DNA from: a virus | IMG/VR virus record: IMGVR_UViG_3300047494_000112 | Span: 1 to 64,000 of that record | Direction: 5' to 3' (one strand) | Length of the DNA: 64,000 nt | Shown: in pieces, positions 5,409 through 51,574 of the stretch | Layout of the letters: every line of letters begins with the position of its first letter | How positions within the stretch are numbered: position 1 is the first letter of the stretch | Translations under genes and position numbers: made by a program | The notes under the pieces: generated by a model | The model's input: the letters and a program-made list of their open reading frames with translations, nothing else | What the model was told of the DNA's origin: nothing | The model's database searches: none

Positions 5409-8174
5409 CTAAATTATAATGTTAGAAATAGCAACTTCATTTAGAGTAATGGTGCCATTTTTAGTGGTTTGTAGAGTATCAGTTACAACAGCATAGATTG
5501 AATTAGTAGTCGATGGAGTAATTGAAAGACTCCATGAATTATTAATAGAACTTCCACTTGCTGCTCCATAACTTGTAGCTCTATTAGAGAGTATCAAAGA
5601 TAAATTATTAGTTTGATATAGGTTAACCGTAATACTATCTGAGGGACCAAGAGTTGTTCCAGTAACAGTAAACGGAACTCCATTTGTCGCCGAAGAAGGA
5701 GCATTGATTGTTAGTAAATACTGTCCTGGTGATGGTAACGTTGGAGTTTTTAACTTTGTAGCTGTTATACTTTTTTCAAAAAATGAGGCTGAAAGATATT
5801 GAGCTACAGGAGTAATTGTAACCTTACCTGCAAAGGTCCTTAAAACTAAATAAATTGGAGCAGACTCAACCAAAAGTTGACGATATAAAGGTTCATCTAA
5901 TTCAGGAAAAGCTGAAGCATCGTAATAGACATCATAATAAGGTGTTGGAATCCACGTACCGCTACTAGATTGAGTAATCAATGTTCCAGGATTAGATGAA
6001 AGAGAAGCATACACTAATCCATTAGCATAGAGAGGTACATATTGAAAAGGTACTTGAGAAAAGAAAGATACAAAATTTGCAAACTGTTTACTGTTTCCTC
6101 TCGTTAGATAAAATGTACCCAAATATCTCATCAAACTATCATATTGATAGTATTGTAAGCCATAATCAGGAACCACAAAGCCCATTTGCCTAACTGTAGC
6201 GGCTTTCAATTCATCTTCAATGGCATTCACATTTCTAACATTTTGCAATTCATTAATTGAACTGTTGAACAAATTATTCCATTGTAGATCCATAGCTGAG
6301 ACCAAAGTCGTCCAAAAAGGATTGCTAGCATATTGTTCTGTCATCAACAAATTATAGTTTACATATTGCGTATATGTAGCTGTAGGATCTACATTGATAA
6401 ATTTGTTGTTAATAGCTTGGTTTAAAGAATAATCAGAACAATCTGACCATTGAAAAGTTAGTTTTGGATACCAGGGATAAGGTCTATCGTCCCAATAACC
6501 AGCACTCCAATTTGTAATGTTGCCATTTGGACTAGCATATTGAATGTAGGTAGAATAAATTGAGTAAAAATTACTACCTACATTATTATCTGATTGCCCA
6601 TTACTAGCAAATGGAAAGGAATATTCTCCACTAGACTGATGTAAAATTGCATCGGGTTGATTTGTCGCCAAGTTGATAGAAGGACATACAATATTGTATA
6701 GATATACAGATTTAGAGTTTGGCACCCAAGAAGTAGGAACAGACGAAAAATTGTATCCGTCAAAATTATAATGAATGTTTTCTATCCAAGCATCATAGTT
6801 TTTTAACTGCTGAATCCATGTAGTGGTGCTGGTAGGTCCTGCTATCGTTGTTCTTTGTTGATTTATTTGAGGGTCGTTAATTAGTCCATCAGCAGAATTG
6901 TAATATTCTTGATAATACCAATCCCAGTATTGTTGGCCTAAAATTCCTTCAACCAAGTAAGGCTGATTTGTCGATGCAGGATAATAAGATCCGTCTATGT
7001 TAGAGCCATAATTTCTCCAATCAGTTGTAGGAAAATTTGCCTGAATTGCAATATAAGAAATTGCACTATTCGACCACAAAGCATCCATGCTAAATATTCT
7101 AGAAGCTGTTGCAGTAAATGTAGGATATTTCTCGTTTTGAGATCCTTGCCACTCATTCCAATCAGCTACGTATGAAATATTGACACTTGTACCTAAAAAT
7201 AAGGAAGCAGATTGTTCAGCCAAAGTTATCAAATAGTCTACAGCAGGAAAATCTAAATTGACGCCTTGGGTAGAAGTCAATGTTGACAAACCTCTACCTA
7301 TATAAAAATCAGTCAGAGTTACACCACCAAACTCTTTGATAAAAGAAGAGAGCATTGTAGCATAATAAATTACAAAGTTAGAATAGGAAGTATCTAAGAT
7401 AGATTCATTATATGTTGAAGTCAATATACCTGCGCTAGAAAAAATGCAGGAATACGCTGATGTAGACTGGTTTCCAAAAAAAGTTGCAATTTGATCAGTC
7501 GCTTGAGTAGTACCAAAAGTTGAACCTGCATAGTTTTTTGCGGGAGAAATTGTTAATTGAGACGCTGGCGGGTAAGCAGGTTGACCAATTACAGAGTTGT
7601 TATCTGAGTAAGGATTTAATAAATTGTTATTTGAAGAAATGTCTGGGATAACAGTTAAACAAACAGAAACATTTATTTCTAAGGAACTTAAAGATAGTAG
7701 AAGATTTAAGATACTTTGGTCAGAAGGTGTTCCTCTAAAAGCAGGTAATCCATTTATCTGTGAAACCACATAGGCATCGGCTCGATTAATTCCTGCTACC
7801 TGCCATTCATAAGGCATTGTATCTAAAATTGCAGTTGTTACTCCTGGCTGTACATTTGTAGCAGCGCAATTTAAACTAGTTACATACCACCCAATATCTA
7901 AATGTACTTTCTTGATGTTAGGATAAGACTGTAGCATTTCATTTAAGCTAACAGTAATGTCTGTTTTTTCTGTTGTGTATTGTTGAGTATTAATGTTAAT
8001 GTAAACCTCAACAGCTTCATTTTGAGTATTAGTAATCAAAATTGGCGTCGGATCATAAGAAAATTCACCTTGACCGTTGCCTAAATGAATTTCAGTAATT
8101 GCTTGAGATATCGGAGCAACAGGTTGCGTAAGGTCCAAGGTTGCCAAGACGGGATTACTGGAAGGTAAACCCAT
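5409..8174 (-). CDS. Baseplate wedge (gp7/gpI-like) fused to an N-terminal GTA-type TIM-barrel-like domain
   Basis: Motifs GTPSDQS, FPAVDYL, ISYVADWNEW, MDALW, DWYY, WVPNSK, NQPD and WDDRPYP parallel the GTA baseplate TIM-barrel family. The C-terminal third (WTTLVSAMD...MGF...RGNSKQFANFVSF) is wedge-like. It follows the gp6-like gene. Confidence 0.7.
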   Translation of the reverse strand: MGLPSSNPVLATLDLTQPVAPISQAITEIHLGNGQGEFSYDPTPILITNTQNEAVEVYININTQQYTTEKTDITVSLNEMLQSYPNIKKVHLDIGWYVTSLNCAATNVQPGVTTAILDTMPYEWQVAGINRADAYVVSQINGLPAFRGTPSDQSILNLLLSLSSLEINVSVCLTVIPDISSNNNLLNPYSDNNSVIGQPAYPPASQLTISPAKNYAGSTFGTTQATDQIATFFGNQSTSAYSCIFSSAGILTSTYNESILDTSYSNFVIYYATMLSSFIKEFGGVTLTDFYIGRGLSTLTSTQGVNLDFPAVDYLITLAEQSASLFLGTSVNISYVADWNEWQGSQNEKYPTFTATASRIFSMDALWSNSAISYIAIQANFPTTDWRNYGSNIDGSYYPASTNQPYLVEGILGQQYWDWYYQEYYNSADGLINDPQINQQRTTIAGPTSTTTWIQQLKNYDAWIENIHYNFDGYNFSSVPTSWVPNSKSVYLYNIVCPSINLATNQPDAILHQSSGEYSFPFASNGQSDNNVGSNFYSIYSTYIQYASPNGNITNWSAGYWDDRPYPWYPKLTFQWSDCSDYSLNQAINNKFINVDPTATYTQYVNYNLLMTEQYASNPFWTTLVSAMDLQWNNLFNSSINELQNVRNVNAIEDELKAATVRQMGFVVPDYGLQYYQYDSLMRYLGTFYLTRGNSKQFANFVSFFSQVPFQYVPLYANGLVYASLSSNPGTLITQSSSGTWIPTPYYDVYYDASAFPELDEPLYRQLLVESAPIYLVLRTFAGKVTITPVAQYLSASFFEKSITATKLKTPTLPSPGQYLLTINAPSSATNGVPFTVTGTTLGPSDSITVNLYQTNNLSLILSNRATSYGAASGSSINNSWSLSITPSTTNSIYAVVTDTLQTTKNGTITLNEVAISNIII

Positions 8175-8737
8175 TAATTTTCTCCTAAATCTTTTAGTCT
8201 TTGTTTTGCAATAGGCCTAACATATTCCTCTTGATCTTTTAGCAAAGCTTTAGCATGGTTAGCATTTCCATTCCAAGCTACTGCTGCTCTTACATATCTA
8301 TTTGGATCTGAGATTAGCTTGTCTCTATGAGAATCGTTTCCATTCCAAGCTACTGCTTGTCTTACATTTGGATGTGGATCTTTTACTAGCTTGTCTCTAT
8401 GAGAATCATTTCCACTCTCAGCTACTGCATGTCTTACATACCAATCTGGATCTGAGATTAGCTTATCTCTGTGAGAGTCGTTTCCATGCTCAGCTACTGC
8501 ACGTCTTACATGCTCACTTGGATCTGAGATTAGCTTGTCTCTATGAGAATCGTTTCCATTCCAAGCTACTGCTCCTCTTATATATCTATTTGGATCTGAT
8601 ATTAGCTTATCTCTGTGAGAGTCGTTTCCATGCTCAGCTACTGCATGTCTTACATGCTCACTTGGATCTGAAACTAAAGAGTCTAAGTGTTTAGGATGAC
8701 CAATTTTAGCTAAAGCTTGGCGTTGTTTAGGTGTCAT
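8174..8737 (-). CDS. LRV/HEAT-like 24-aa repeat protein, family copy (6 repeats)
   Basis: N-cap MTPKQRQALAKIGHPKHLDS, six LxxDPxxxVRxAVAxxGNDSHRDK units and a C-cap; ATGA overlap upstream, TAATG overlap downstream. Confidence 0.92.
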   Translation of the reverse strand: MTPKQRQALAKIGHPKHLDSLVSDPSEHVRHAVAEHGNDSHRDKLISDPNRYIRGAVAWNGNDSHRDKLISDPSEHVRRAVAEHGNDSHRDKLISDPDWYVRHAVAESGNDSHRDKLVKDPHPNVRQAVAWNGNDSHRDKLISDPNRYVRAAVAWNGNANHAKALLKDQEEYVRPIAKQRLKDLGEN

Positions 8738-10368
8738 GTCAGTGAAGCCCTGTTTGATACCTGCATATTTAATGAAATGGTACCCAACGAAAGAAATTGA
8801 TTAGGCGATACAATTTGATCGGTACTAGGTTGTTGTAGCTGAACATATTGGATATTGCCATTTGGATCACTGTTGATAATTGTTTCCACAATATCAGACA
8901 TATAGATACTGTAGCCTAGAAATCCTGCTCTAGGAGTAAACAAACTAGTTAGATTGGCAATAATTAAATTTTCTAAAGTGGATAACGGAATCTGGTCAGT
9001 GCAAAATATATTTGCAGTAATGTTAACAGGAATTTGTACAGTATTTAGCTGAATAAATTGAAGATTAGCTCCGGCATAAGTTGAAAGCCAAGAAGTAAAA
9101 GCTTGAAACTGTGCTTGAGACCAATTGCTGCCTGAGGAAGGTAAGATTGCAACCTGTACTACCATCATGTAGTTTAGATTATCTGGAGCAAAAGAAGCTT
9201 GGCCTTGAAAGTACGCATCTATTACACCTGAATAGTTTAAGGCAAAAGCGTTATAATCTGATAAGGTTGAAGGTCGAACTTTTGCCGAATAAGAACCAGG
9301 AGAAATTATTTTATACTCACTAGCCAAACGTTGGTTTGAACCGTTGTTTGATGAGGTACTAGCGGTGCCCATGATTGTTATATTTTGAGATCCACTACCT
9401 GAAAAAACTGTTGTGCTGTAATTGAACATGCTTCCTTGTAGATTCAGATTACCATTTGCACCTAAGGTTGTAGCATAGGTGACCACAATTTGAGCATTAA
9501 TAGGAGGGATTACTCCATAATTGCCATCACCAAATGTAATTGTAGCGTTCCCTGAAACGTCAGTAGATTGATAATAAACTGTATCTGCAGGCCCATATTC
9601 CCAAAGCCCTGTAGCATAAAATGTTGTATACTCTGTAGGAGAATAGTTTGGTTTATCTAAAACGCTGCTGTTAACATATACTGCAATATCTTGGTCAGAG
9701 ATTGTAAAGTCAGGTGAGGTTAAGCTAAATGTTTGTAGTGCCTGCCCATTGCTATAAAAAGTTGCCGTGTTAACAGTACCTTGATATAGAGTAGCTGAAG
9801 CTGTAGTAGAGCCTACTGGAAAGAGTATTTGATTTCTATTAAAGAAATTAATTCCGCCAACGTTAAATTGAGTGTAGGAATTAATTAAAACAGAATTTGA
9901 GTAAGTTGTGGATAAAGTAAAAGTTACTCCCATTGAAGCAGGTGAACACCTTGCAATTCTAACGCCTAATAATCTAGTAATTTCATAGATAGAACTTGGT
10001 AATTGGGCAAAATCTAACATGCTTTCTTGCAAGGCTCGTTCAACTGAGAATTGATTGTAAGCTTGAGCTGTTGCAATCATTTCAATTAAAGTTTGGCCTG
10101 TTGCAGCTTCAGCAGTATTTGTCCAAGCAGGATTAGGAGAATTGTTTAAAATGCTTTGAAGTTCTGCAACATTAGATTCATAGTCCGGTTGAATTGCTGT
10201 CAAAGGCAAAGCTGCTGTCGAATATAAAGCAACATAGGTAGATAATAGCCCTTGAATAATGTTGCTATCGATACTCCCTACAGGTAAACCTAATGCTCCT
10301 GGCAAATTTTGTACAAGGTACGCTGATAAGGCTGATACGGTACTTCTAATTGGCTGATCAGCCATCAT
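8734..10368 (-). CDS. Baseplate wedge subunit (T4 gp6 / baseplate J-like)
   Basis: ERALQESMLDFAQLPSSIYEITRLLG, ITFGDGNYGVIPP and DYNAFALNYSGV motifs; follows the gp25-like gene. Confidence 0.85.
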   Translation of the reverse strand: MMADQPIRSTVSALSAYLVQNLPGALGLPVGSIDSNIIQGLLSTYVALYSTAALPLTAIQPDYESNVAELQSILNNSPNPAWTNTAEAATGQTLIEMIATAQAYNQFSVERALQESMLDFAQLPSSIYEITRLLGVRIARCSPASMGVTFTLSTTYSNSVLINSYTQFNVGGINFFNRNQILFPVGSTTASATLYQGTVNTATFYSNGQALQTFSLTSPDFTISDQDIAVYVNSSVLDKPNYSPTEYTTFYATGLWEYGPADTVYYQSTDVSGNATITFGDGNYGVIPPINAQIVVTYATTLGANGNLNLQGSMFNYSTTVFSGSGSQNITIMGTASTSSNNGSNQRLASEYKIISPGSYSAKVRPSTLSDYNAFALNYSGVIDAYFQGQASFAPDNLNYMMVVQVAILPSSGSNWSQAQFQAFTSWLSTYAGANLQFIQLNTVQIPVNITANIFCTDQIPLSTLENLIIANLTSLFTPRAGFLGYSIYMSDIVETIINSDPNGNIQYVQLQQPSTDQIVSPNQFLSLGTISLNMQVSNRASLT

Positions 10369-10856
10369 TTTTCTCCTAACTCTTTTAGTCTCTTTTTAGC
10401 TGCATCTCTGATACTACTATCTTCATCTTTTAGTAAAGCTTTTGCATAGTTAGCATTTCCATTCCTAGCTACTGCATGTCTTACATTCCAAATTGGATCT
10501 TTTACTAGCCTATCTCTATGAGAATCGTTTCCATGTGTAGCTACTGCATGTCTTACAATCCAATCTTTATCTTTTACTAGCTTGTCTCTATGAGAATCGT
10601 TTCCATTCCATGCTACTGCTGCTCTTACATGTCTATTTGGATCTGATACTAGCTTATCTCTGTGAGAGTCATTTCCACGCTCAGCTACTGCTTCTCTTAC
10701 ATACACATTTGGATCTGAAACTAGCTTGTCCCTATGAGAATCGTTTCCATGCTCAGCTACTGCTTCTCTTACATTCCAATCTGGATCTGAAACTAGCTTG
10801 TCTAAATGTTTAGGATGACCAATTTCAGCTAAAGCTTGGCGTTGGTTAGGTGTCAT
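10365..10856 (-). CDS. LRV/HEAT-like repeat protein, family copy (5 repeats)
   Basis: Same N-cap, repeat and C-cap; ATGA overlaps at both ends. Confidence 0.92.
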   Translation of the reverse strand: MTPNQRQALAEIGHPKHLDKLVSDPDWNVREAVAEHGNDSHRDKLVSDPNVYVREAVAERGNDSHRDKLVSDPNRHVRAAVAWNGNDSHRDKLVKDKDWIVRHAVATHGNDSHRDRLVKDPIWNVRHAVARNGNANYAKALLKDEDSSIRDAAKKRLKELGEK

Positions 10857-11272: not shown

Positions 11273-11274
11273 TT

Positions 11275-11919
11275 CTAATAATCCGTTTGACCAGAAAAGC
11301 TAGTGTTAGCGGGAGTTTCTCTAACTATAGGGGTTAAATTTGAAGCTGGATTAGAGCCTGTGTTTAAATTTATTTTTGTTCCTGTTAGATTAATTTTGCC
11401 ACTTGAATAAATGCTACAATCTCCAGTGGCATTTACATTTAACGATGAACTAGATACAATGTTGATTACGCCATTACTAAACTGAATATATGACCCATCA
11501 ACCATGTTATATGTCCATGTCTTGGACACTGTATCAACCTTAAAAAGATTACCAGCAGCATCAACCCATCCATATTGAGTAGGTGCAGTAAAATCTATTA
11601 GTTTACTAGACTGATCCATTGAACTACCAAGCCAATAAGTGTTCACAGCATCATTTTCAGGAAAATAGACAGCAACCTTACTACCATTTACAGGTACTCC
11701 AAAACCTCCTATGCCTGGGGCATTCCCTTGAAATAGATTTTGAATAGGTAAGGTCCAAGGCAAGACAGCATCTTGATAACCTTGATGAAGTAATCCAATA
11801 CGTACCTGCAAGCGTTGAATTCCCATTGGATCATTATTGTTAACAACATAGCCAAATAAAATTTGACCTGTTAAATTGTAAGACTGAGATTGATTATCTA
11901 ATCCATTCAAAATGGTCAT
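11275..11919 (-). CDS. Baseplate central spike (gp5/gpV-like OB-fold plus beta-repeat)
   Basis: GYVVNNNDPMGIQRLQVRI...PW...VPVNGSKVAVYF OB-fold motif; C-terminal short beta repeats ending GTKINLN. Confidence 0.85.
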   Translation of the reverse strand: MTILNGLDNQSQSYNLTGQILFGYVVNNNDPMGIQRLQVRIGLLHQGYQDAVLPWTLPIQNLFQGNAPGIGGFGVPVNGSKVAVYFPENDAVNTYWLGSSMDQSSKLIDFTAPTQYGWVDAAGNLFKVDTVSKTWTYNMVDGSYIQFSNGVINIVSSSSLNVNATGDCSIYSSGKINLTGTKINLNTGSNPASNLTPIVRETPANTSFSGQTDY

Positions 11920-12554
11920 ACATTATGTCCTAACTCTTTTATTCTAACTCTTGCAGCAGTACTAACATATTTCTCTTTATCATTTAGCAAAGCTTTAGCA
12001 TGGTTAGTGTTTCCATACTTAGCTACTGCATATCTTACAGATGAATTTTTATCTTTTACTAGCTTATCTCTATGAGAGTCGTTTCCATGCTGAGCTACTA
12101 AATATTTTACATCTGGATCTTTATCTTTTACTAGCTTGTCTCTATGAGAATCGTTTCCATGCTCAGCTACTGCATATCTTACACCTACATGTGGATCTGA
12201 AATTAGCTTGTCTCTATGGGAATCATTTCCATGCTGAGCTACTGTATATCTTACAGAATAATCTGGATCTGAAATTAATTTGTCCCTTTGAGAGTCATTT
12301 CCAATTCTAGCTACTGCTTGTCTTACAGACGAATCTTTATCTTTTACTAGCTTGTCTCTATGAGAATCGTTTCCATGCTCAGCTACTGCATATCTTACAA
12401 TCCAATCTGGATCTGATATTAGCTTATCTCTATGGGAGTCGTTTCCATTCCTAGCTACTGCTTGTCTTACATTAAAATTTGAATCTGAAACTAGCTTATC
12501 TAAATGCTTAGGATGACCAATTTGAGCTAGAGCTTGGCGTTGGTTAGGTGTCAT
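11916..12554 (-). CDS. LRV/HEAT-like repeat protein, family copy (7 repeats)
   Basis: Same architecture; sits between the hub and spike genes with ATGA overlaps on both sides. Confidence 0.92.
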   Translation of the reverse strand: MTPNQRQALAQIGHPKHLDKLVSDSNFNVRQAVARNGNDSHRDKLISDPDWIVRYAVAEHGNDSHRDKLVKDKDSSVRQAVARIGNDSQRDKLISDPDYSVRYTVAQHGNDSHRDKLISDPHVGVRYAVAEHGNDSHRDKLVKDKDPDVKYLVAQHGNDSHRDKLVKDKNSSVRYAVAKYGNTNHAKALLNDKEKYVSTAARVRIKELGHNV

Positions 12555-13732: not shown

Positions 13733-13733
13733 A

Positions 13734-14129: not shown

Positions 14130-14141
14130 CTAAAACATTCC

Positions 14142-15071: not shown

Positions 15072-15076
15072 TTTGA

Positions 15077-17332: not shown

Positions 17333-17335
17333 CTA

Positions 17336-18728: not shown

Positions 18729-18831
18729 TTTACTAAAGGTTCAAATTTTATCATTTGGTTATAATGAACCAAAGCAGGGCAGGAGATGTCGCCCTATATT
18801 AAAATAGCTGTTAATTTGTACTTGTTTCAAC

Positions 18832-20135: not shown

Positions 20136-20147
20136 ATTTATCTAACC

Positions 20148-21266: not shown

Positions 21267-21275
21267 TCAGCTTCC

Positions 21276-32863: not shown

Positions 32864-33499
32864 TTATTTTTCTCCTAATGCTTTTAGTCTTTGTTTTGCA
32901 GCAGTACTAACATCACCATCTTGATCTTTTAGTAAAGCTTTAGCATGGTTAGCATTTCCTTTTTCAGCTATTGCATGTCTTACATTCTCATCTGGATCTG
33001 AGACTAGCTTGTCTCTATGAGAGTCATTTCCATGCTCAGCTACTGTATGTCTTACATACCAATCTGGATCTTTAATTAGCTTGTCCCTATGAGAATCGTT
33101 TCCATGCTCAGCTACTGCTTCTCTTACATTCCAATCTGGATCTGAAACTAGCTTGTCTCTATGAGAATCATTTCCGTGTCTAGCTACTGCATATCTTACA
33201 TCTGGATCTTTATCTTTTACTAGCTTATTTCTATGGTAATCATTTCCATACTTAACTACAGTCTGTCTTACATTCTCATCTGGATCTGATACTAGCTTGT
33301 CTCTATGAGAGTCGTTTCCATTCCTAGCTACTGCATGTCTTACATTCCAATCTGGATCTTTAATTAGCTTGTCTCTATGGGAATCGTCTCCATTCTCAGC
33401 TACTGCATGTCTTACAGCCGAATCGGGATCTGATACTAGCTTATCTAAATGCTTAGGATGACCAATTTCAGCTAAAGCTTTTCTTTGCCAAATGTTCAA
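32864..33499 (-). CDS. LRV/HEAT-like repeat protein, family copy (7 repeats)
   Basis: TTG start overlapping the upstream TGA; C-cap TTAGGAGAAAAATAA provides the RBS for the TopIB gene. Confidence 0.92.
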   Translation of the reverse strand: MNIWQRKALAEIGHPKHLDKLVSDPDSAVRHAVAENGDDSHRDKLIKDPDWNVRHAVARNGNDSHRDKLVSDPDENVRQTVVKYGNDYHRNKLVKDKDPDVRYAVARHGNDSHRDKLVSDPDWNVREAVAEHGNDSHRDKLIKDPDWYVRHTVAEHGNDSHRDKLVSDPDENVRHAIAEKGNANHAKALLKDQDGDVSTAAKQRLKALGEK

Positions 33500-35790: not shown

Positions 35791-36016
35791 CGGCAGTAAT
35801 CAGATATTTAATTAGAGCAACAGCCATATCGTTAAGCTGAGCTCTATCAATTTGAATGTGAGCCTGTTCTCCCTGTTTAACAACTACGCCTTCTAAATTG
35901 TGATGAGGCTTGCTACGAATTGTAACGTAAACCCCACCGTCTGGATATTTGTTAATGGAAATGTATTCAGGATAACAGCCCTGTGTAGCTGTCCAAGCAA
36001 AAATGTTCTCAATCAT
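35783..36016 (-). CDS. Small hypothetical phage protein
   Basis: 77 aa; RBS supplied by the upstream repeat gene; FAWT...YPEYISIN motif. Confidence 0.65.
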   Translation of the reverse strand: MIENIFAWTATQGCYPEYISINKYPDGGVYVTIRSKPHHNLEGVVVKQGEQAHIQIDRAQLNDMAVALIKYLITADD

Positions 36017-36437
36017 TACTCTTTACTCCTAATTCTTTTAGTCTATTTCTTGCAGCGTGTTTAATAGACTCATCTTTATCATTCAATAGAGCTTTTGCGT
36101 GGTCAAGGTTTCCTTTCATAGCTACAGCTCTTCGTACTTCAGGAGAATAATCATGCAATAGCTTGTCTCTGTGCGAATCGTTTCCAGTCCAAGCGACAGT
36201 TCGTCTTACGGTAAAATCTTCATCATGCAATAGCTTGTCTCTATGGAAATCATTTCCATGGATAGCGACGGCACCTTTTATATCAGGATTATCAGAATGC
36301 ACTAGCTTATCTCTATGAAAGTCGTTTCCATGCCAAGCAACTCTTAATCTTACTCCAAAATTTTTATCCTCGACTAGCTTATCTAAGTGCTTAGGATGAC
36401 CAATGGTAGCTAGAGCTATGCGTTGTTTAATGTTCAT
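36009..36437 (-). CDS. LRV/HEAT-like repeat protein, more diverged family copy (4 repeats)
   Basis: MNIKQRIALATIGHPKHLDK cap; GND(F/S)HRDKL framework; KELGVK C-cap. Confidence 0.9.
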   Translation of the reverse strand: MNIKQRIALATIGHPKHLDKLVEDKNFGVRLRVAWHGNDFHRDKLVHSDNPDIKGAVAIHGNDFHRDKLLHDEDFTVRRTVAWTGNDSHRDKLLHDYSPEVRRAVAMKGNLDHAKALLNDKDESIKHAARNRLKELGVKSND

Positions 36438-38673: not shown

Positions 38674-38714
38674 ATTGTATTACTCCAAGCCTTATTCTAT
38701 TTTTACCAGAGTTT

Positions 38715-39434: not shown

Positions 39435-39447
39435 TATAGCCTCCTAA

Positions 39448-40589: not shown

Positions 40590-40590
40590 T

Positions 40591-41082
40591 CTATTTAACT
40601 CCTAACTCTTTTAGTCTCTGTTTTGCAGTATTTCTAACATATTTATCTTTATCTTTTAGTAAAGCTCTTGCATGGTTAGCATTTCCATTCCTAGCTACTG
40701 CATGTCTTATATATCTATCTGGATCTGAAATTAGCTTGTCTCTATGAGAATCATTTCCATTCTCAGCTACTGCTGCTCTTACAAACTCACTTGGATCTGA
40801 GACTAGCTTGTCTCTATGAGAATCGTTTCCATGCTCAGCTACTAAATATCTTACATTCTCATTTGGATCTGAAACTAGCTTATCTCTATGAGAGTCGGTT
40901 CCATGTGTAGCTACTGCATGTCTTATATTCTCATCTTTATCTTTAACTAGCTTATCTCTATGAGAGTCGTTTCCATTCCTAGCTACTGCTGCTCTTACAG
41001 ACTCACTTGGATCTGACACTAGCTTATCTAAGTGCTTAGGATGACCTATAGTAGCTAAAGCTTTGCGTTGTTTAGGTGTCAT
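40591..41082 (-). CDS. LRV/HEAT-like repeat protein, family copy (5 repeats)
   Basis: Canonical caps and repeats; TCATGA junction upstream. Confidence 0.92.
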   Translation of the reverse strand: MTPKQRKALATIGHPKHLDKLVSDPSESVRAAVARNGNDSHRDKLVKDKDENIRHAVATHGTDSHRDKLVSDPNENVRYLVAEHGNDSHRDKLVSDPSEFVRAAVAENGNDSHRDKLISDPDRYIRHAVARNGNANHARALLKDKDKYVRNTAKQRLKELGVK

Positions 41083-43112: not shown

Positions 43113-43113
43113 G

Positions 43114-44437: not shown

Positions 44438-44450
44438 TTACCTTATTTCC

Positions 44451-44762
44451 TTAATAGGGAAGAGTATAATCTGTAAACTCATTAGCTATTCTATCATGAG
44501 CATGACTTCTAACATTAAGATCTGAATCGTGACTCAGTTTTTTCAAATGGTCGTAATTGCCAAATTCAGCAACTGTTTCTCTAACCAAAGGATTCTTGCT
44601 CTTGATCAGTCTATCTCTGTGTTCATCTGTACCATACTGAGCCAAGTCTACATGATATCTAGGATTCTTGAAAAACTTTTTAATGTGCTTTGGATGACCA
44701 ATTTGTATTAACGCTGGTATACTATCCCATTTGATTGCACTCTTTAGCTTTTCCTTAGCCAT
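44451..44762 (-). CDS. Diverged LRV/HEAT-like repeat protein
   Basis: QIGHPKH cap; YGTDEHRDRLIKSKNPLVRETVAEFGN. Confidence 0.8.
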   Translation of the reverse strand: MAKEKLKSAIKWDSIPALIQIGHPKHIKKFFKNPRYHVDLAQYGTDEHRDRLIKSKNPLVRETVAEFGNYDHLKKLSHDSDLNVRSHAHDRIANEFTDYTLPY

Positions 44763-45768: not shown

Positions 45769-47708
45769 CTTTTACCTACTTCAACCAAAGTTTTTACAAC
45801 CTTGTTTGCCTTTCTTAAAGCTAGTGCTCTAGCTCTTCTATCCGCCAAGGCTTTAGCTATGGTTTTCATGGTCTTCTCTTTGATAACCTTTTGTCCTTTG
45901 GCAGAAATGTTTATCCTTTTTCCACCTTCTCCAAAAGCGCCGGTGTCAACACTTGGATCATAATCTCTATGCAGAGACATGTTTGCTCCAACACCAAATC
46001 TTGACATGCTCTTTAAAGCAGAGCCAACAAATTGTTGAGACTGATCATCGCCACCAGCCTCTTGCTGAGATTGTTGCTGCAATTGCTGCGTCATTTCATC
46101 AATTTGAGCATTGTACATTGCAATTTTTTTTCGCATTGCCAAGTCTTCTTGAAAATTTGCAACAATTTGATTGATATCTAACGAACCAGCAGCAGCAAGC
46201 ATGGCAATGGGAACAGGAATACCCATACCGTTCATATCGTTTAGCATTTGCAAGTAAGCTTGATCTCCTTCGGGCGACAAGTGTTTGTGATAAACGACCT
46301 TTGGAATTAACAGGTCATGCGTATCCATATCAACGCCAGCAATTGTTTTGTGGCGATGACGTGGGATTACATCATTGTATAAACGTCTATTAGCAATACG
46401 ATAAATGCGTTCATCATCAGTTTCAATGCGAGGTCCACTAGAGCCTGTTACCTGATATCGACGTTCTTCTCTAAAATCGTTAGCTGCTGAAATTGCGGGA
46501 AATAGCTTTTCATAAAACAAGCCAGTAGTAATTTTAGCACGAAAAGTACGAATATTATCAAGCATAACTGATAGAGAAGCATCCAAAGTTGAAAGAGAAA
46601 CTTCTCCAGTTAGTATACCCTCTGATAAGCCAAAGGCTCTATACTTGTTTGCTGAAGCATACTCGAAAACTTGATCTACGTTCCAAAACTCACCAGCAGC
46701 ACGAATTTCGTTTGTATTGACGCCTGTACGAGTGACAATTATAGCACCAGTTGGATCCAAATCTCCTTGTAGAAATAAATCACGAAAAGACTCTAAATCA
46801 GATTGAGTTGGAATCCATTCGTCATCGCCACCTACCATTACATGTAGCAAAGCTCTTTGACGTCTATTAGCCACGTCAATTGTACCGCGCATTAGAGCTT
46901 TTTCAATTAAATGAACAGGCAAAACTCTTTCATACATGCTAACGCCAAATGGTTCAGCAGTCATTGTTCTACGTGGAATATAGATAGTGTTGGCTGGCTC
47001 TAACGGAATACGTCCCTGCTTGATCTTTTCAATGAATTCTTGAGGAATATGTGACATTACTTGAGCAACACGAGGATCATTTGATTGCATGATCTTACTC
47101 AAGTCTTTAGGCATAATCAAGTCAATTATAGGATCAACGCCAAAGAGAGGAATGTTGACAATTTCAGTATTATCAATTGATTGCGGAAGAACTGCTGTAA
47201 ATACTTTTTCGTCTTGTTCAAATATTGCATTACCAATAAACGCACCTAATACCTGATAGTCTAAAGATATACCTGGTAGTAACGCACGTAAATGTAGACC
47301 TTCTAAAGATTGATGAAATTTTTCAAGGATATCTTTATCTTTAATACCTGATAAATGAAAATCAGAAAAAGGCAAATTTGCATAAACGTCAGCCGCTCCG
47401 CCACACACAGGATCATGGTAGTACATGTCACGAAATATCTTACGCTTAATACGGGGATCTTCAACAAAAATATTTTCGAGAGTAGCTCTTGAAACGTTTG
47501 AGCTGGTTTGAGTTTGCCCTATTGAGGTTCTACCTCCTTGCTGAGTTTGATCCCAAGCTTCCACGTTATGTTTTCTCAACTTGTCAGCTTGAGCTTGTAC
47601 ACCAGCCGTAATTTCTAATCGTTTTTGAGTAGCAGGCTTTAGATTAGATACTAAAGTAGGGCCTGTGTCCGTACTTGCTACAGTAAAATTACGATTTAGC
47701 TTAATCAT
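45765..47708 (-). CDS. Portal protein
   Basis: 647 aa; YYHDPVCGGAADVY, GNAIF and IYIPRR...GVSMYERVL motifs; located between terminase and protease. Confidence 0.8.
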   Translation of the reverse strand: MIKLNRNFTVASTDTGPTLVSNLKPATQKRLEITAGVQAQADKLRKHNVEAWDQTQQGGRTSIGQTQTSSNVSRATLENIFVEDPRIKRKIFRDMYYHDPVCGGAADVYANLPFSDFHLSGIKDKDILEKFHQSLEGLHLRALLPGISLDYQVLGAFIGNAIFEQDEKVFTAVLPQSIDNTEIVNIPLFGVDPIIDLIMPKDLSKIMQSNDPRVAQVMSHIPQEFIEKIKQGRIPLEPANTIYIPRRTMTAEPFGVSMYERVLPVHLIEKALMRGTIDVANRRQRALLHVMVGGDDEWIPTQSDLESFRDLFLQGDLDPTGAIIVTRTGVNTNEIRAAGEFWNVDQVFEYASANKYRAFGLSEGILTGEVSLSTLDASLSVMLDNIRTFRAKITTGLFYEKLFPAISAANDFREERRYQVTGSSGPRIETDDERIYRIANRRLYNDVIPRHRHKTIAGVDMDTHDLLIPKVVYHKHLSPEGDQAYLQMLNDMNGMGIPVPIAMLAAAGSLDINQIVANFQEDLAMRKKIAMYNAQIDEMTQQLQQQSQQEAGGDDQSQQFVGSALKSMSRFGVGANMSLHRDYDPSVDTGAFGEGGKRINISAKGQKVIKEKTMKTIAKALADRRARALALRKANKVVKTLVEVGKR

Positions 47709-47717
47709 TTTGTATTC

Positions 47718-48143
47718 CTATTTGGCAAAGTTTAAAAACGCTTTTAGTCTATTTTTTGCACTAGACCTAACTTTGCTATCTTTATCTTTTAGTAAAGCTT
47801 TAGCATGGTTAGCATTTCCATTCCTAGCTACTGCATATCTTACATGCCAATCTGGATCTGAAACTAGCTTGTCTCTATGGTAATCGTTTCCATGCCTAGC
47901 TACTGCTTCTCTTACATACTCATCTGGATCAGAAACTAGCTTATCTCTATGAGAATCATTTCCATCAGTAGCTACTGCTTCTCTTACATGCCAATCTGGA
48001 TCTGATACTAGCCTATCTCTATGAGAGTCGTTTCCATGCTTAGCTACTGCACGTCTTACATATGCCTCTGGATCTGATATTAAAGAGTCTAAATGTTTAG
48101 GATGGCTAATTGAAGCTAAAGCTTGACGTTGGTTAGGTGTCAT
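47718..48143 (-). CDS. LRV/HEAT-like repeat protein, family copy (4 repeats, altered C-terminus)
   Basis: Canonical repeats; ends RLKAFLNFAK instead of RLKELG. Confidence 0.92.
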   Translation of the reverse strand: MTPNQRQALASISHPKHLDSLISDPEAYVRRAVAKHGNDSHRDRLVSDPDWHVREAVATDGNDSHRDKLVSDPDEYVREAVARHGNDYHRDKLVSDPDWHVRYAVARNGNANHAKALLKDKDSKVRSSAKNRLKAFLNFAK

Positions 48144-48145
48144 TT

Positions 48146-48709
48146 TTATTTAACTCCTAATGCTTTTAGTCTTTGTTTTGCAGCAAGTCTAACTTCTTTA
48201 TCTTGATCTTTTAGTAAAGCTTTAGCATGGTTAGCATTTCCATGTGCAGCTACTGCATATCTTACATATTCCTCTGGATCCGAAACTAGCTTGTCTCTAT
48301 GGGAATCATTTCCATGCTGAGCTACTGCATATCTTACATCTGTATCTTTATCTTTTACTAGCTTATCTCTATGGGAATCATTTCCACGCTCAGCTACTGC
48401 ATATCTTACATCTGTATCTTTATCTTTTACTAGCTTATCTCTATGAGAGTCGTTTCCATGCTCAGCTACAGTCTGTCTTACATATCTATTTGGATCTTTT
48501 ACTAGCTTATCTCTGTGAGAAGGGTTTCCATGCTTAGCTACTGCTTCTCTTATAGACGAATCTTTATCTGAAATTAGCTTATCTCTGTGAGAATCGTTTC
48601 CATTCTCAGCTACTGCATATCTTACAGACGAATCTTTATCTTTAATTAGTTTATCTAAATGTTTAGGATGACCAATTTCAGCTAAAGCTTGGCGTTGGTT
48701 AGGTGTCAT
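48146..48709 (-). CDS. LRV/HEAT-like repeat protein, family copy (6 repeats)
   Basis: Canonical; contains two adjacent near-identical DKDTDVRYAVA units. Confidence 0.92.
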   Translation of the reverse strand: MTPNQRQALAEIGHPKHLDKLIKDKDSSVRYAVAENGNDSHRDKLISDKDSSIREAVAKHGNPSHRDKLVKDPNRYVRQTVAEHGNDSHRDKLVKDKDTDVRYAVAERGNDSHRDKLVKDKDTDVRYAVAQHGNDSHRDKLVSDPEEYVRYAVAAHGNANHAKALLKDQDKEVRLAAKQRLKALGVK

Positions 48710-49038
48710 TTAGTGTATCCTATCGAGTGCATGTGAATCTCATGACCACCATCTGTCTTTTTAATCTGAATTGATACATCACGTTTAGGTGAAACCCAAT
48801 GCGTTCTATTGCCAGGTACTAGTGGAGACATTTCTTGACGTAAAAATTTGTGCATAGGTAAAGGCATATCATCAGCCGCATGGCGCATTACAACCTTTGT
48901 GGTTTGGATTCTTTCTTTAGACTCAGGATCAGTGATCTTGCCCATTTTTGTCATAGACATTGTGTAGCCACAGCCTTTTTTGCCAAGGCAAACTTTGCTA
49001 GCTTTTAAAATTAAAGGGTGGGCAAGTGGCTCTGACAT
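48706..49038 (-). CDS. Hypothetical protein
   Basis: 110 aa, coupled on both sides to repeat genes. Confidence 0.65.
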   Translation of the reverse strand: MSEPLAHPLILKASKVCLGKKGCGYTMSMTKMGKITDPESKERIQTTKVVMRHAADDMPLPMHKFLRQEMSPLVPGNRTHWVSPKRDVSIQIKKTDGGHEIHMHSIGYTK

Positions 49039-49529
49039 TACTGTAATCCTAAATCTTTTAGTCTTTGTTTTGCACTAGACCTAACTTCGCTATCTTTATC
49101 GTTCAGTAAAGCTCTTGCATGGTTAGCATTTCCATTCTCAGCTACTGCCCATCTTACATATGCCTCTGGATCTGATACTAGCCTATCTCTATGAGAATCG
49201 TTTCCATTCTCAGCTATCTCACGTCTCACCTTCCAATTTGGATCTGATACTAGCCTATCTCTATGAGAATCGTTTCCATTCTCAGCTACTGCACGTCTTA
49301 CATCTCGATCTTTATCTGAAACTAGCTTGTCTCTATGGGAGTCATTTCCATTCCAAGCTACTGCACGTCTCACATGCCAATCTGGATCTGATACTAGCCT
49401 ATCTCTATGAGAGTCGTTTCCATTCCATGCTACTGCTGCTCTTACATCTACCTCTGGATCTGAAACTAGCTTATCTAAATGCTTAGGATGACCAATTTCA
49501 GCTAAAGCTTGGCGTTGGTTAGGTTTCAT
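49038..49529 (-). CDS. LRV/HEAT-like repeat protein, family copy (5 repeats)
   Basis: Canonical caps and repeats. Confidence 0.92.
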   Translation of the reverse strand: MKPNQRQALAEIGHPKHLDKLVSDPEVDVRAAVAWNGNDSHRDRLVSDPDWHVRRAVAWNGNDSHRDKLVSDKDRDVRRAVAENGNDSHRDRLVSDPNWKVRREIAENGNDSHRDRLVSDPEAYVRWAVAENGNANHARALLNDKDSEVRSSAKQRLKDLGLQ

Positions 49530-49760
49530 TTAATCTTCTTTAACAGGGATACAGGTTCTAGCTCCTAGATCAACCCACATGCTAAATTCCTTGCCCTGGA
49601 AAGAACCTTTAACGAGCTGCATAGGTTGTTTTGATGCTGACGAAAGAGGAGGTTTTTCTGTAGCAGCCACCAATGAACTAATAACCTCAACCTTTGCTTT
49701 AATTACTTTTTTGTCGGCTTCAGGATTACAAAACAATGGGTCAATTAATTCTCTAGTCAT
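49530..49760 (-). CDS. Hypothetical protein
   Basis: 76 aa between repeat genes; TAATG coupling. Confidence 0.6.
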   Translation of the reverse strand: MTRELIDPLFCNPEADKKVIKAKVEVISSLVAATEKPPLSSASKQPMQLVKGSFQGKEFSMWVDLGARTCIPVKED

Positions 49761-50179
49761 TACTGTGCTCCTAAATCTTTTAGTCTATTTTTTGCAATAG
49801 ACCTAACATATTTATCTTCATCTTTTAGTAAAGCTCTTGCATGGTTAGCGTTTCCATTCCAAGCTACTGCTTGTCTTACATCTGAATCTGAATCTGAAAT
49901 TAGCTTGTCTCTATGAGAGTCATTTCCATGCTGAGCTACTGTATATCTTACACCTACATGTGGATCTGAAATTAGTTTGTCTCTATGAGAATCGTTTCCA
50001 TGCTCAGCTACTGCATATCTTACACCTACATGTGGATCTGAAATTAGCTTGTCTCTATGGGAATCATTTCCATGCTGAGCTACTGTATATCTCACATGCC
50101 AATCTGGATCTGAAACTAGCTTATCTAAATGCTTAGGATGGCCAATTTTAGCTAAAGCTATGCGTTGGTTAGGTGTCAT
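49760..50179 (-). CDS. LRV/HEAT-like repeat protein, family copy (4 repeats)
   Basis: Canonical; two DPHVG units. Confidence 0.92.
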   Translation of the reverse strand: MTPNQRIALAKIGHPKHLDKLVSDPDWHVRYTVAQHGNDSHRDKLISDPHVGVRYAVAEHGNDSHRDKLISDPHVGVRYTVAQHGNDSHRDKLISDSDSDVRQAVAWNGNANHARALLKDEDKYVRSIAKNRLKDLGAQ

Positions 50180-50181
50180 TT

Positions 50182-50601
50182 TTATTTTTCTCTTAACTCT
50201 TTTAGTCTTTGTTTTGCAATAGACCTAACATCATCATCTTCATCTTTTAGTAAAGCTTTAGCATGGTTAGCGTTTCCATTCCATGCTACTGCTTCTCTTA
50301 CATTCTCATCTGGATCTTTAATTAGCTTGTCTCTATGAGAGTCGTTTCCATTCCTAGCTACTGCATGTCTTACATTCCAATCTGGATCTGAAATTAATTT
50401 ATCTCTATGGGAATCGTTTCCATTCCTAGCTACTGAACGTCTTACATATCTATTTGGATCTGATATTAGCTTATCTCTGTGAGAATCGTTTCCATTCTCA
50501 GCTACTGCTGCTCTTACATATTCCTCTGGATCTTTTACTAGCTTGTCTAAATGCTTAGGATGACCAATTAAAGCTAAAACTATGCGTTGGTTAGGTGTCA
50601 T
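50182..50601 (-). CDS. LRV/HEAT-like repeat protein, family copy (4 repeats)
   Basis: Canonical; TCATGA junction upstream. Confidence 0.92.
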   Translation of the reverse strand: MTPNQRIVLALIGHPKHLDKLVKDPEEYVRAAVAENGNDSHRDKLISDPNRYVRRSVARNGNDSHRDKLISDPDWNVRHAVARNGNDSHRDKLIKDPDENVREAVAWNGNANHAKALLKDEDDDVRSIAKQRLKELREK

Positions 50602-50942
50602 GACGTACCTTGCAATTTCTGTGCTGCATACTTTTTGACGGTGTCATTAGGATCTTTTGTTAGCATTGAAGCTAAATTACGATCAGCATTTTTAGCTACA
50701 GCAATACGAACAATAGCTTCAGGGTCATGCACAAGCATTGATACAAATTTAATTACTCCAGTCATGGCCACAGCTTTTCTAACCAAAGGATCTGGATCTT
50801 TAACATACTTTAAAAGAGCAGTAGGGTTACCTGACCGTATTTCGGTATACTTTTGATGGTGTACTTTACGCAAAGATGCACCAGATTTGTTGTCTGGTGC
50901 TTGTTGCTGTAGTGCAGGAATGTTTGCAAAATCAGAGCTCAT
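50598..50942 (-). CDS. Distantly related HEAT-like repeat protein
   Basis: YVKDPDPLVRKAVA, LVHDPEAIVRIAVA, LTKDPNDTVKKYA; lacks the family caps. Confidence 0.75.
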   Translation of the reverse strand: MSSDFANIPALQQQAPDNKSGASLRKVHHQKYTEIRSGNPTALLKYVKDPDPLVRKAVAMTGVIKFVSMLVHDPEAIVRIAVAKNADRNLASMLTKDPNDTVKKYAAQKLQGTS

Positions 50943-51574
50943 GACTCACCTAACTCTTTTAATCTATGTCTTGCAATAGGCCTAACATTATCATCTTTAT
51001 CGTTCAGTAAAGCTCTTGCATGGTTAGCGTTTCCATCCCAAGCTACTGCTGCTCTTACAAACTCACTTGGATCTGAGATTAGCTTGTCTCTATGAGAGTC
51101 GTTTCCATTCTCAGCTATCACACGTCTTACATTCGGATTTGGATCTGAAATTAATTTATCTCTATGGGAGTCGTTTCCATGCTCAGCTACTGCATATCTT
51201 ACATTCCATTTTGGATCTTTAATTAGCTTATTTCTATGGTAATCGTTTCCATGCTTAGCTACTACATATCTTACTCCTGCATTTGAATCTGATACTAGCT
51301 TATCCTTGTGAGAGTCATTTCCATGCTGAGCTACTGCTTCCCTTACATTCCAGTGTGTATCTGAAACTAGCTTATCTCTATGAGAATCGTTTCCATTTAT
51401 AGCTACTGCACGTCTTACATACCAATCTGGATCTGAAACTAGCTTATCCTTATGGGAATCGTTTCCACTTATAGCTACTGCATGTCTTATATACACATTT
51501 GGATCTGAAACTAGCTTGTCTAAATGTTTAGGATGACCAATTTTAGCTAGAGTTAAGCGTTGTTTAGTATTCAT
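50939..51574 (-). CDS. LRV/HEAT-like repeat protein, family copy (7 repeats)
   Basis: Canonical; C-cap AGGTGAG RBS and TCATGA overlap with the next gene. Confidence 0.92.
   Translation of the reverse strand: MNTKQRLTLAKIGHPKHLDKLVSDPNVYIRHAVAISGNDSHKDKLVSDPDWYVRRAVAINGNDSHRDKLVSDTHWNVREAVAQHGNDSHKDKLVSDSNAGVRYVVAKHGNDYHRNKLIKDPKWNVRYAVAEHGNDSHRDKLISDPNPNVRRVIAENGNDSHRDKLISDPSEFVRAAVAWDGNANHARALLNDKDDNVRPIARHRLKELGES

What the first reader, a model, noticed from the sequence alone, without database searches (positions are those of the whole stretch)
8174..51574. Hypervariable surface positions are shuffled as reusable blocks between copies
Seen: unit positions 6-8, 11-12 and 15-16 vary (W/E/R/Y/H/N/Q/S) while the others are fixed. 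The same DNA blocks recur in different genes and orders: DPDW, DPSE, DPNRY, DPDEN, DKDSS, DKDPD, DPHVG and DPE(E/A)Y. They combine with different downstream halves (R-H/E/Y/R/A-AVA-EH/RN/WN/QH). Some genes carry local duplications (DKDTD twice in 48146, DPHVG twice in 49760). Inference: inter-copy recombination or gene conversion through the constant GTAAGA and GGAAAYGAYTCYCAYAG segments generates combinatorial diversity without a reverse transcriptase.
Basis: partly seen in the sequence, partly recalled or inferred. Interest (0 to 1): 0.8.

Follow-up and report, generated by a model that had tools for sequence, protein, structure and literature searches.

The report
Recombining repeat-protein gene family in phage
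A large uncultured T4-like phage carries about nineteen genes for small helical repeat proteins whose few variable residues sit on a constant scaffold, and the DNA shows these variable patches have been swapped between repeats and between genes by recombination, a route to protein diversity known from fungal immune receptors but, as far as I could find, not described in phages.

Summary
Eleven canonical genes in the window, plus five elsewhere on the 187-kb contig, are built from 83 in-register 72-nt LRV/HEAT-type units. Variation is concentrated at unit residues 5, 7-10, 13, 17 and 18 (pooled pN/pS 1.8, against 0.16 for the scaffold).

The recombination reading is largely supported:
- Variable codons form short haplotype blocks (7-10, 13-14, 17-18). 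Linkage is strong inside each block and absent between blocks.
- Silent codon choices travel with block alleles.
- Units with an identical block 7-10 are no closer elsewhere. No-recombination simulations predict about 0.2 of the background distance.
- Exact tracts of 116, 82 and 67 nt join distant genes at different repeat positions, with sharp edges.
- No reverse transcriptase was found in this contig or in three relatives. The phage encodes a RecA/UvsX-type recombinase.
- An unrelated complete phage, IMGVR_UViG_3300050132_000084, shows the same combinatorial design in about 17 genes.

Still untested: ongoing variation in populations (no strain-level relatives were found) and what the proteins bind. 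The closest known parallel is the "high internal conservation" repeats of fungal NLRs. This scan had already noted the family in other windows of the same genome.

The parts
8174..8737 (-). Canonical family gene: N-cap, 6 units, C-cap (187 aa)
   Evidence: ORF and translation; Pfam HEAT, HEAT_2 and LRV; TRF period 72
10365..10856 (-). Canonical family gene, 5 units (163 aa). This is the AlphaFold2 target. Its unit 1 (10722-10803) is identical over 82 nt to unit 5 of 32864-33499.
11916..12554 (-). Canonical family gene, 7 units (212 aa). One partner of the 116-nt mosaic tract.
12136..12251 (-). 116-nt exact tract shared with 49977-50092. It runs from R12 of unit 4 to D1/K2 after unit 5. The flanks are 63-75% identical.
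   Evidence: (Bonferroni P 3.5e-10)
32864..33499 (-). Canonical family gene, 7 units (211 aa). It shares an 82-nt tract (33077-33158) with 10365-10856 and a 67-nt tract (33293-33359) with 50182-50601.
36009..36437 (-). Divergent paralogue, 4 units. Scaffold identity is 0.80-0.90. It shares no variable block with the canonical set.
40591..41082 (-). Canonical family gene, 5 units (163 aa), directly after an Alt-like ADP-ribosyltransferase gene
44451..44762 (-). Divergent short paralogue (103 aa)
47718..48143 (-). Canonical family gene, 4 units (141 aa)
48146..48709 (-). Canonical family gene, 6 units (187 aa). KDTD is duplicated locally in units 4-5. The N-cap is 100% identical to that of 10365-10856, but the C-cap is nearest to other genes.
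49038..49529 (-). Canonical family gene, 5 units (163 aa)
49760..50179 (-). Canonical family gene, 4 units (139 aa). By its caps it is a tandem duplicate of 50182-50601, yet it carries the 116-nt tract (49977-50092) identical to 11916-12554.
   Evidence: (period 422)
50182..50601 (-). Canonical family gene, 4 units (139 aa). It shares a 67-nt tract (50323-50389) with 32864-33499.
50598..50942 (-). Divergent HEAT-type paralogue (114 aa)
50939..51574 (-). Canonical family gene, 7 units (211 aa)

Best explanation
This is a dispersed multigene family of small capped alpha-solenoid proteins with 24-residue LRV/HEAT-type repeats. The 72-nt units stay alike enough to pair with one another. Homologous recombination between units of the same gene and of different genes moves short stretches of DNA from one unit to another. 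This is non-crossover gene conversion plus in-register unequal exchange, most likely run by the phage's own RecA/UvsX-type machinery during recombination-dependent replication. Tracts range from part of a unit to about two units. The effect is to reassort three small variable blocks (residues 7-10, 13-14 and 17-18 on the loop and one face of helix A) and to change unit number (4-7 per gene). Point mutation adds new block alleles, and diversifying selection keeps them. The outcome is a set of about 16 co-expressed proteins with 81 different units on one scaffold, probably a repertoire of binding surfaces.

Shown: the block structure, the lack of linkage between blocks, the mosaic tracts, the absence of a reverse transcriptase and the fold.

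Inferred: the enzyme responsible, the tempo, and that the variable face binds something.
For: - Fold and family: Pfam HEAT, HEAT_2 and LRV. The AlphaFold2 model has pLDDT 96.5, with helix A at unit residues 9-18 and helix B at residues 21-3. The Foldseek top hit is 1LRV (TMq 0.79), followed by artificial alphaRep binders.
- Variation: entropy and pN/pS per codon. Pooled pN/pS is 1.80 at variable codons and 0.16 at scaffold codons.
- Block linkage: z = 3.7-6.8 inside 7-10, 6.8 for 17-18 and 3.3 for 13-14, but about 0 between blocks. This includes helix neighbours at i+4 (9-13, 10-14, 13-17, 14-18), so linkage follows DNA distance and not contacts in the fold.
- PHI permutation P = 0.0005 at both nucleotide and codon level.
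- Block-graph excess is 11, 10 and 16 events, against 14, 12 and 20 under free shuffling.
- There are 16 strict four-gamete quartets in which the alleles differ by at least 3 nt on one side and at least 2 nt on the other.
- Silent codon choice is allele-specific. PEEY always uses GAA while PSE and PDE use GAG. KDSS uses TCG while KDSD uses TCA. PNVY uses GTG while PHVG uses GTA. QT uses CAG while QA uses CAA.
- 59 unit pairs have an identical block 7-10. Their distance in codons 13-18 is 4.69, against 4.51 for random pairs. No-recombination simulations matched to the data give a ratio of about 0.22, and 0 of 25 reach 1.
- The nearest neighbour of a unit lies in another gene at another ordinal position for 58 of 83 units.
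- N-cap and C-cap distances are uncorrelated (Mantel r = -0.17).
- Exact tracts of 116, 82 and 67 nt link genes up to 38 kb apart at shifted unit positions.
- A RecA-family gene is present at about 120 kb on the contig.
- No RVT_1 in this contig or in G001-G003.
- Independent replicate: G001 has about 17 genes and 94 units, built from 23 x 12 x 15 block alleles on a scaffold that is almost invariant even at silent sites. It needs at least 18-21 events per block pair. Linkage decays within 1-1.5 units, and exact tracts of up to 150 nt lie at offsets of 2-6 units.
Against: - No strain-level relatives were found, so there is no direct view of new combinations arising.
- Many block alleles are single-base neighbours (PDWH, PDWN, PDWY), so recurrent mutation under selection contributes an unknown share of the homoplasy.
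- Five silent C/T sites only 3 nt apart in the linker also assort freely (18 haplotypes in 67 linkers). This looks more like mutational saturation than crossing-over, and it shows that lack of linkage alone is not proof.
- PHI is not significant in G001 (P = 0.07 to 0.73).
- Both key genomes are metagenome assemblies whose reads I could not inspect.
- Exact homology between canonical units in this phage is now short, so present-day exchange may be slow.
Confidence: 0.75

Rival explanations
1. There has been no exchange. Genes and units arose by duplication, and the variable codons then changed by ordinary point mutation under strong diversifying selection. The recurrent blocks are convergent, favoured motifs at the start of helix A.
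For: There are 49 alleles of block 7-10 in 83 units, and many are one base apart. Silent C/T sites in the linker appear saturated and unlinked, so the family may be old. pN/pS exceeds 1 at the variable codons.
Against: Silent codon choice tracks the block alleles. Linkage follows DNA distance and not helix contacts. Tree-only simulations predict that pairs with an identical block 7-10 should be about five times closer in codons 13-18 than they are. Tracts of 67-116 nt with sharp edges lie at shifted positions. In G001 the scaffold is frozen even at silent sites, yet alleles differ by 2-3 nt per codon and recombine freely.
Confidence: 0.13
2. The mosaics are artefacts. Short-read metagenome assembly of a mixed strain population, or of repeats, stitched paralogues or strains together.
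For: G000 and G001 are IMG/VR metagenome contigs. G001 has 39-nt perfect linkers every 72 nt and shared tracts of up to 150 nt. Reads were not available to me.
Against: Block combinations sit within 33 nt, which is inside any k-mer or read. In G000 only five shared tracts exceed 60 nt. 15 of the 16 canonical genes keep frame and caps. Gene order around them is a coherent virion module. A PacBio-assembled cultured phage, vB_VmeM-32, has the same type of repeat genes.
Confidence: 0.05
3. Diversity comes from a targeted mutator, either a diversity-generating retroelement or another site-directed system, and not from recombination.
For: At codons 8, 10 and 18 the first two bases vary while the third is almost always T. 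This superficially recalls AAY codons rewritten by a DGR.
Against: No RVT_1 was found in this contig (about 81% complete) or in G001 (complete), G002 or G003. Other variable codons (9, 13, 14, 17) change at all three bases and occur as discrete multi-base alleles in linkage. No template-repeat and variable-repeat pair is evident, because every copy is itself variable.
Confidence: 0.03

Closest known systems
Repeats with high internal conservation (HIC) in fungal NOD-like receptors (Podospora HNWD family: het-d, het-e, het-r WD40 domains)
   Same: Repeats are 80-100% alike in DNA within and between paralogues. A handful of codons under diversifying selection map to the predicted interaction surface. 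Repeats are gained, lost and shuffled, and paralogues recombine (as summarised in PMC11761791).
   Different: The fold is WD40 beta-propeller, not an alpha-solenoid. The repeats are a sensor domain fused to an NTPase in a cellular immune receptor, not free-standing 14-24 kDa proteins of a virus. Here the exchanged pieces are often smaller than one unit.
LRV protein of Azotobacter vinelandii (PDB 1LRV; Pfam PF01816) and PBS-lyase/HEAT-like repeats
   Same: The period is 24 residues, with the D-P-x-x-x-V-R-x-x-V-A signature and alternating long and short helices in a right-handed solenoid. It is the best Foldseek match (TMq 0.79).
   Different: There is no N-terminal 4Fe-4S domain (PF05484 is not hit). 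The cellular protein is single-copy, and its repeats are diverged rather than near-identical.
Artificial alphaRep (and DARPin-type) binder libraries
   Same: An N-cap, a variable number of identical-scaffold repeats and a C-cap, with a few randomised positions on one helix face. alphaRep structures are Foldseek ranks 2-5.
   Different: These are man-made, with 31-residue repeats whose positions were randomised by synthesis. The phage family is natural, has a 24-residue period, and draws on a limited allele set reassorted by recombination.
TAL effector repeats of Xanthomonas/Ralstonia
   Same: Near-identical tandem repeats differ at a few hypervariable residues. From my own knowledge, not checked here: paralogues evolve by repeat recombination and indels.
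   Different: The repeats are 33-35 residues with a two-residue DNA-base code. They are secreted effectors of bacteria. There is no evidence here for nucleic-acid binding.
Segmental gene-conversion systems for antigenic variation (Neisseria pilE/pilS, Borrelia vlsE)
   Same: Short mosaic tracts are copied between paralogous copies through conserved flanks, without a reverse transcriptase (from my own knowledge).
   Different: Those systems have one expression site fed by silent cassettes. Here every copy has its own start, is translationally coupled within late operons and appears to be expressed.

Membership tests
LRV / HEAT-like repeat proteins (Pfam PF01816, PF02985, PF13646) | Profile match above the curated cut-off | tested here: met
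   HEAT scores 37-77 bits (cut-off 23.5) in all 10 proteins tested. LRV is above 21.6 bits in 7 of 10, scores 20.7 in one, and is absent in two.
LRV / HEAT-like repeat proteins (Pfam PF01816, PF02985, PF13646) | 24-residue period with alternating helices forming a solenoid | tested here: met
   TRF period 72 nt. The AF2 model has pLDDT 96.5 with alternating 10-residue and 7-residue helices. 1LRV is the top Foldseek hit (TMq 0.79, rmsd 2.5).
LRV protein sensu stricto (A. vinelandii type) | N-terminal 4Fe-4S cluster domain (PF05484) | tested here: not met
   No PF05484 hit in any of the 10 proteins. The N-terminus is an 18-residue half-repeat cap.
HIC (high internal conservation) repeat families that diversify by recombination | Repeats near-identical in DNA within and between paralogues | tested here: met
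   The mean pairwise difference is 16.5 of 72 nt. 40 scaffold sites are 97% identical to the consensus. In G001 the scaffold codons are 93-94 of 94 identical.
HIC (high internal conservation) repeat families that diversify by recombination | Few codons under diversifying selection on one surface | tested here: met
   pN/pS is 4-13 at codons 5, 7, 8 and 10. Pooled pN/pS is 1.8 at variable codons and 0.16 at scaffold codons.
HIC (high internal conservation) repeat families that diversify by recombination | Exchange of repeats or parts of repeats between paralogues | tested here: met
   Mosaic tracts, block reassortment and cap discordance.
HIC (high internal conservation) repeat families that diversify by recombination | Repeat-number and repeat-content polymorphism among individuals of a population | not testable with these tools
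Diversity-generating retroelement targets | Reverse transcriptase in the element or genome | tested here: not met
   No RVT_1 in G000 or in G001-G003. The controls gave hits.
Diversity-generating retroelement targets | Variation confined to positions that are adenine in an invariant template repeat | tested here: not met
   Codons 9, 13, 14 and 17 vary at all three bases as discrete linked alleles. No invariant template copy exists.
TAL effector-like repeats | 33-35-residue repeat with a hypervariable di-residue at positions 12-13 | tested here: not met
   The period is 24 residues, with three variable blocks per unit.

The most novel reading that the evidence does not exclude
The phage runs a true diversity-generating system without a reverse transcriptase. 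During each infection its own recombination machinery reassorts a genomic library of about 85 repeat units across about 16 co-expressed genes. Progeny therefore differ in their repertoire of binding surfaces, for example against host defence or receptor proteins. This would be a viral counterpart of cassette-based immune repertoires. The odd pattern of frozen and free silent sites inside each unit would reflect tuning of where exchange happens.
Probability: 0.15. Interest if true: 0.85.

Novelty: new variant of a known kind. Interest (0 to 1): 0.6.

Why it matters
Phages are known to diversify binding proteins with retroelements and by swapping tail-fibre modules. A genome-dispersed family of scaffold-constant repeat proteins that reshuffles its contact residues by homologous exchange would be a third route. 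It would also be the viral mirror of the recombining repeat sensors of fungal and other immune receptors.

The family is also a natural version of engineered alphaRep and DARPin libraries. It comes with a ready-made allele set that evolution has already filtered for foldability.

Related genes occur in at least two unrelated uncultured phages and, in a smaller form, in a cultured T4-like Vibrio phage (vB_VmeM-32, DSM 29703). Targets and tempo can therefore be tested at the bench.

Tried and rejected
- DGR: no reverse transcriptase.
- Selection for alternating silent variants between neighbouring linkers, as an anti-deletion device: not supported, since adjacent linkers are no more different than random ones (P = 0.38).
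- Higher-order 144 and 216-nt periodicity suggested by TRF: no linkage between unit i and unit i+2, so I did not treat it as real.
- PHI on G001: not significant. The G001 case therefore rests on block-graph counts and linkage decay.
- The N-terminal 'L-A-E' as a T4-type prohead-protease or capsid-targeting site: rejected, because the E is replaced by K, Q, T, S or L in most copies.
- G002 relatives: their repeats are diverged and not of the near-identical type, so they give no test.
- Literature searches for this family in phages found nothing.
- Solvent exposure could not be computed, because model coordinates are not exposed to scripts.

Full report
**What is there**

The window is the first 64 kb of a 187,324-bp IMG/VR phage contig. 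It has a T4-like late gene set:
- a large terminase at 52133-54310, whose nearest hit is Phage NCTB at 38%;
- a portal at 45765-47708, and tail and baseplate genes.

Between these genes, all on the minus strand, lie eleven canonical genes of one family and three divergent ones. Four more canonical copies and one frameshifted copy lie at 177.8-183.9 kb on the plus strand.

Each canonical protein has three parts: an 18-residue N-cap (MTPNQRQALAEIGHPKHL), 4-7 units of 24 residues, and a C-cap. I cut 87 units in strict 72-nt register. The register is D1-K-L-V-S-D6-P-D-W-N-V11-R12-x-A-V-A-x-x-G19-N-D-S-H-R24. All statistics use 83 of these units, leaving out the four of the divergent gene 36009-36437.

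**Fold**

- Pfam gives HEAT, HEAT_2 and LRV.
- AlphaFold2 on 10365-10856 gives a confident solenoid (pLDDT 96.5). Helix A covers unit residues 9-18 and helix B covers residues 21-3.
- Foldseek ranks 1LRV first (TMq 0.79), followed by artificial alphaRep binders.

- Entropy is 2.0-2.9 bits at residues 8, 9, 10, 13, 17 and 18, about 1 bit at 4, 5, 7 and 14, and near zero elsewhere.
- pN/pS is 4-13 at codons 5, 7, 8 and 10. Pooled, it is 1.80 for the variable codons and 0.16 for the scaffold.
- On a helical wheel, residues 9, 13, 17 and 10 (and less so 14 and 18) fall on one arc of helix A. V11, V15, R12 and A16 fall on the other arc. This is an inference from periodicity. I could not read coordinates.
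- The two local duplications are real.

**Is it shuffling?**

1. Linkage. I treated each codon as a multi-state character.
   - Mutual information is strongly above shuffles inside block A (residues 7-10; z = 3.7-6.8), for 17-18 (6.8) and for 13-14 (3.3).
   - It is indistinguishable from zero between blocks.
   - This includes pairs that touch in a helix (9-13, 10-14, 13-17, 14-18).
   - Linkage that follows DNA distance and ignores helix contacts argues for physical linkage broken by recombination. It argues against structural co-selection.
2. A PHI-type test, which permutes site order, gives P = 0.0005 for nucleotides and for codons.
3. The bipartite allele graphs need at least 11 (A x 13-14), 10 (A x 17-18) and 16 (13-14 x 17-18) extra events. 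Free shuffling would give 14, 12 and 20.
4. Sixteen four-gamete quartets involve alleles at least 3 nt apart on one side and at least 2 nt apart on the other.
5. Silent codon choice travels with the block:
   - E9 is GAA in PEEY but GAG in all sixteen S/D/N-E contexts.
   - S9 is TCG in KDSS but TCA in KDSD.
   - V9 is GTG in PNVY but GTA in PHVG.
   - Q13 is CAG before T14 but CAA before A14.
   Convergence at the protein level would not do this, so the blocks are identical by descent.
6. Yet 59 unit pairs with an identical block A are no closer than random pairs in codons 13-18 (4.69 against 4.51 differences) or in the linker. Coalescent simulations without recombination were tuned to the observed diversity and allele number. 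They predict a ratio near 0.22, and none of 25 reaches 1.
7. For 58 of 83 units the nearest unit sits in another gene at another ordinal position. N-cap and C-cap distances are uncorrelated (Mantel r = -0.17).

**Recent events can be seen directly**

The five longest exact tracts are 116, 82, 81, 67 and 67 nt. The maximum in 100 column-permuted nulls is 54 nt.

- The 116-nt tract joins 12136-12251 (units 4-5 of 11916-12554) to 49977-50092 (units 1-2 of 49760-50179). The two sites are 38 kb apart and shifted by three units. Flanks are 63-75% identical.
- By its caps and a 422-nt tandem repeat, 49760-50179 is the sister of 50182-50601. It is therefore a mosaic.
- The left edge of the tract lies between block A (PDYS against PDWH) and residue 13, that is, in the V11-R12 codons. 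In general, endpoints cannot be placed inside invariant DNA.
- The 82-nt tract makes unit 1 of 10365-10856 equal to unit 5 of 32864-33499.
- One of the 67-nt tracts makes unit 2 of 32864-33499 equal to unit 3 of 50182-50601.

**An independent replicate**

Family searches found IMGVR_UViG_3300050132_000084 (G001). It is 150 kb, has terminal repeats and is rated complete. Its terminase is not detectably related to this phage's. It carries about 17 genes of the same design with 3-10 units each.

- The scaffold is almost invariant even at silent sites, with 93-94 of 94 identical codons at most positions.
- Codons 8, 9, 10, 13, 14, 17 and 18 occur as discrete alleles 2-3 nt apart.
- 94 units are built from 23 x 12 x 15 block alleles, and 81 of the units are distinct.
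- At least 18-21 events per block pair are needed.
- A silent site in codon 16 is linked to codon 17 (z = 12).
- Linkage persists for about one unit and is gone by unit i+2.
- Exact tracts of up to 150 nt lie at offsets of 2-6 units.
- PHI is not significant there.

I read G001 as a younger or more actively homogenised family, and this phage's family as one closer to linkage equilibrium.

The divergent paralogue 36009-36437 has scaffold identity of 0.80-0.90 and shares no block with the canonical set. This fits homology-dependent exchange.

**Mechanism**

- No reverse transcriptase was found in this contig (about 81% complete) or in G001-G003.
- The variable codons are not adenine-restricted, so a retroelement is unlikely.
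- The contig encodes a RecA/UvsX-family protein.
- Nearly every copy starts in an ATGA overlap with the upstream gene, or behind a Shine-Dalgarno sequence supplied by the preceding C-cap. These are therefore expressed genes and not silent cassettes.
- Many copies lie in direct orientation around essential virion genes. Reciprocal crossovers between them would be lethal deletions, so the surviving events should be non-crossover conversions and in-register unequal exchange within arrays (inference).

**Caveats**

- Recurrent mutation clearly contributes. Many alleles are one base apart.
- Five silent C/T sites only 3 nt apart in the linker also assort freely (18 haplotypes in 67 linkers). Crossing-over can hardly explain this.
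- Silent diversity differs ten-fold between the linker (pS 0.59) and the loop and helix A scaffold (pS 0.06). In the latter, wobble bases are fixed far from genome-wide codon usage. I have no tested explanation for this.
- Both key genomes are metagenome assemblies.
- I found no close relatives, so ongoing variation is untested.

**Comparison with known systems**

The evolutionary mode matches the 'high internal conservation' repeats of fungal NLRs. Those are near-identical WD40 repeats with four selected codons on the interaction surface. They show repeat gain, loss and shuffling, and recombination between paralogues (PMC11761791).

The fold is LRV/HEAT, and the architecture mirrors artificial alphaRep libraries.

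I found no paper on such a family in phages. The genome paper of the cultured relative vB_VmeM-32 does not discuss its five 'HEAT repeat protein' genes.

This scan had already noted the family itself in other windows of this genome. What this report adds is the test of the shuffling claim.

**Verdict**

- Observation: confirmed.
- Interpretation: supported on an evolutionary timescale. It is unproven as a real-time diversity generator.
- Novelty: a new variant of a known kind.

Noticed in passing
window 8174-51574, all canonical units (per-unit codons 20-24 and 1-4 against 6, 11, 12, 14-16, 19): Silent sites fall into two classes inside each 72-nt unit. Wobble C/T sites in the linker are about 50:50 and unlinked (pS 0.59). 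Wobble bases in the loop and helix A are almost fixed (pS 0.06). These include NNT at the hypervariable codons 8, 10 and 18, and codons such as CTA, GGA and AGA that are uncommon genome-wide. Neither uniform neutral mutation nor uniform homogenisation explains both classes.
   Followed up: partly
G000 contig 183403-183907 (outside the window): One family copy is split by a single-base loss in the GNDSHR linker (GATTCATAGAGAC in place of GATTCTCATAGAGAC). This could be a pseudogene, a sequencing error or a frameshift site.
   Followed up: no
window 8302-8694 (+) and 49160-49486 (+): Open frames of 130 and 108 codons lie antisense to repeat genes. They are periodic translations of the same repeats and are most likely not genes.
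   Followed up: no
window 41079-42797 (-): A 572-aa protein with an ADP-ribosyltransferase domain (phrog_3895, E 2e-9) lies directly upstream of repeat gene 40591-41082. It recalls the packaged Alt enzyme of T4.
   Followed up: no
window, starts and ends of all family genes: Most copies start in an ATGA overlap with the upstream stop. The C-cap codons for L-G-x-K supply a GGAG just before the next start. The genes are therefore translationally coupled into the late operons.
   Followed up: partly
L001-L004 (IMGVR_UViG_3300050132_000084, 95.7-137 kb): A complete 150-kb phage carries about 17 genes of the same design at 52-62% identity, yet has no detectable homologue of this phage's terminase. 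The family therefore crosses phage lineages.
   Followed up: partly
L043 (Vibrio phage vB_VmeM-32, KU160494.1; 34468-35430 and four other places): A cultured, PacBio-assembled T4-like Vibrio phage has five related 'HEAT repeat protein' genes. One has 10 near-identical units and an extra 65-residue N-terminal domain that is also seen in metagenomic hits P0007 and P0010.
   Followed up: partly
G000 contig about 120.2-121.0 kb (L037): A 492-codon frame has a RecA-family match of 60 bits, presumably the UvsX-type recombinase.
   Followed up: no
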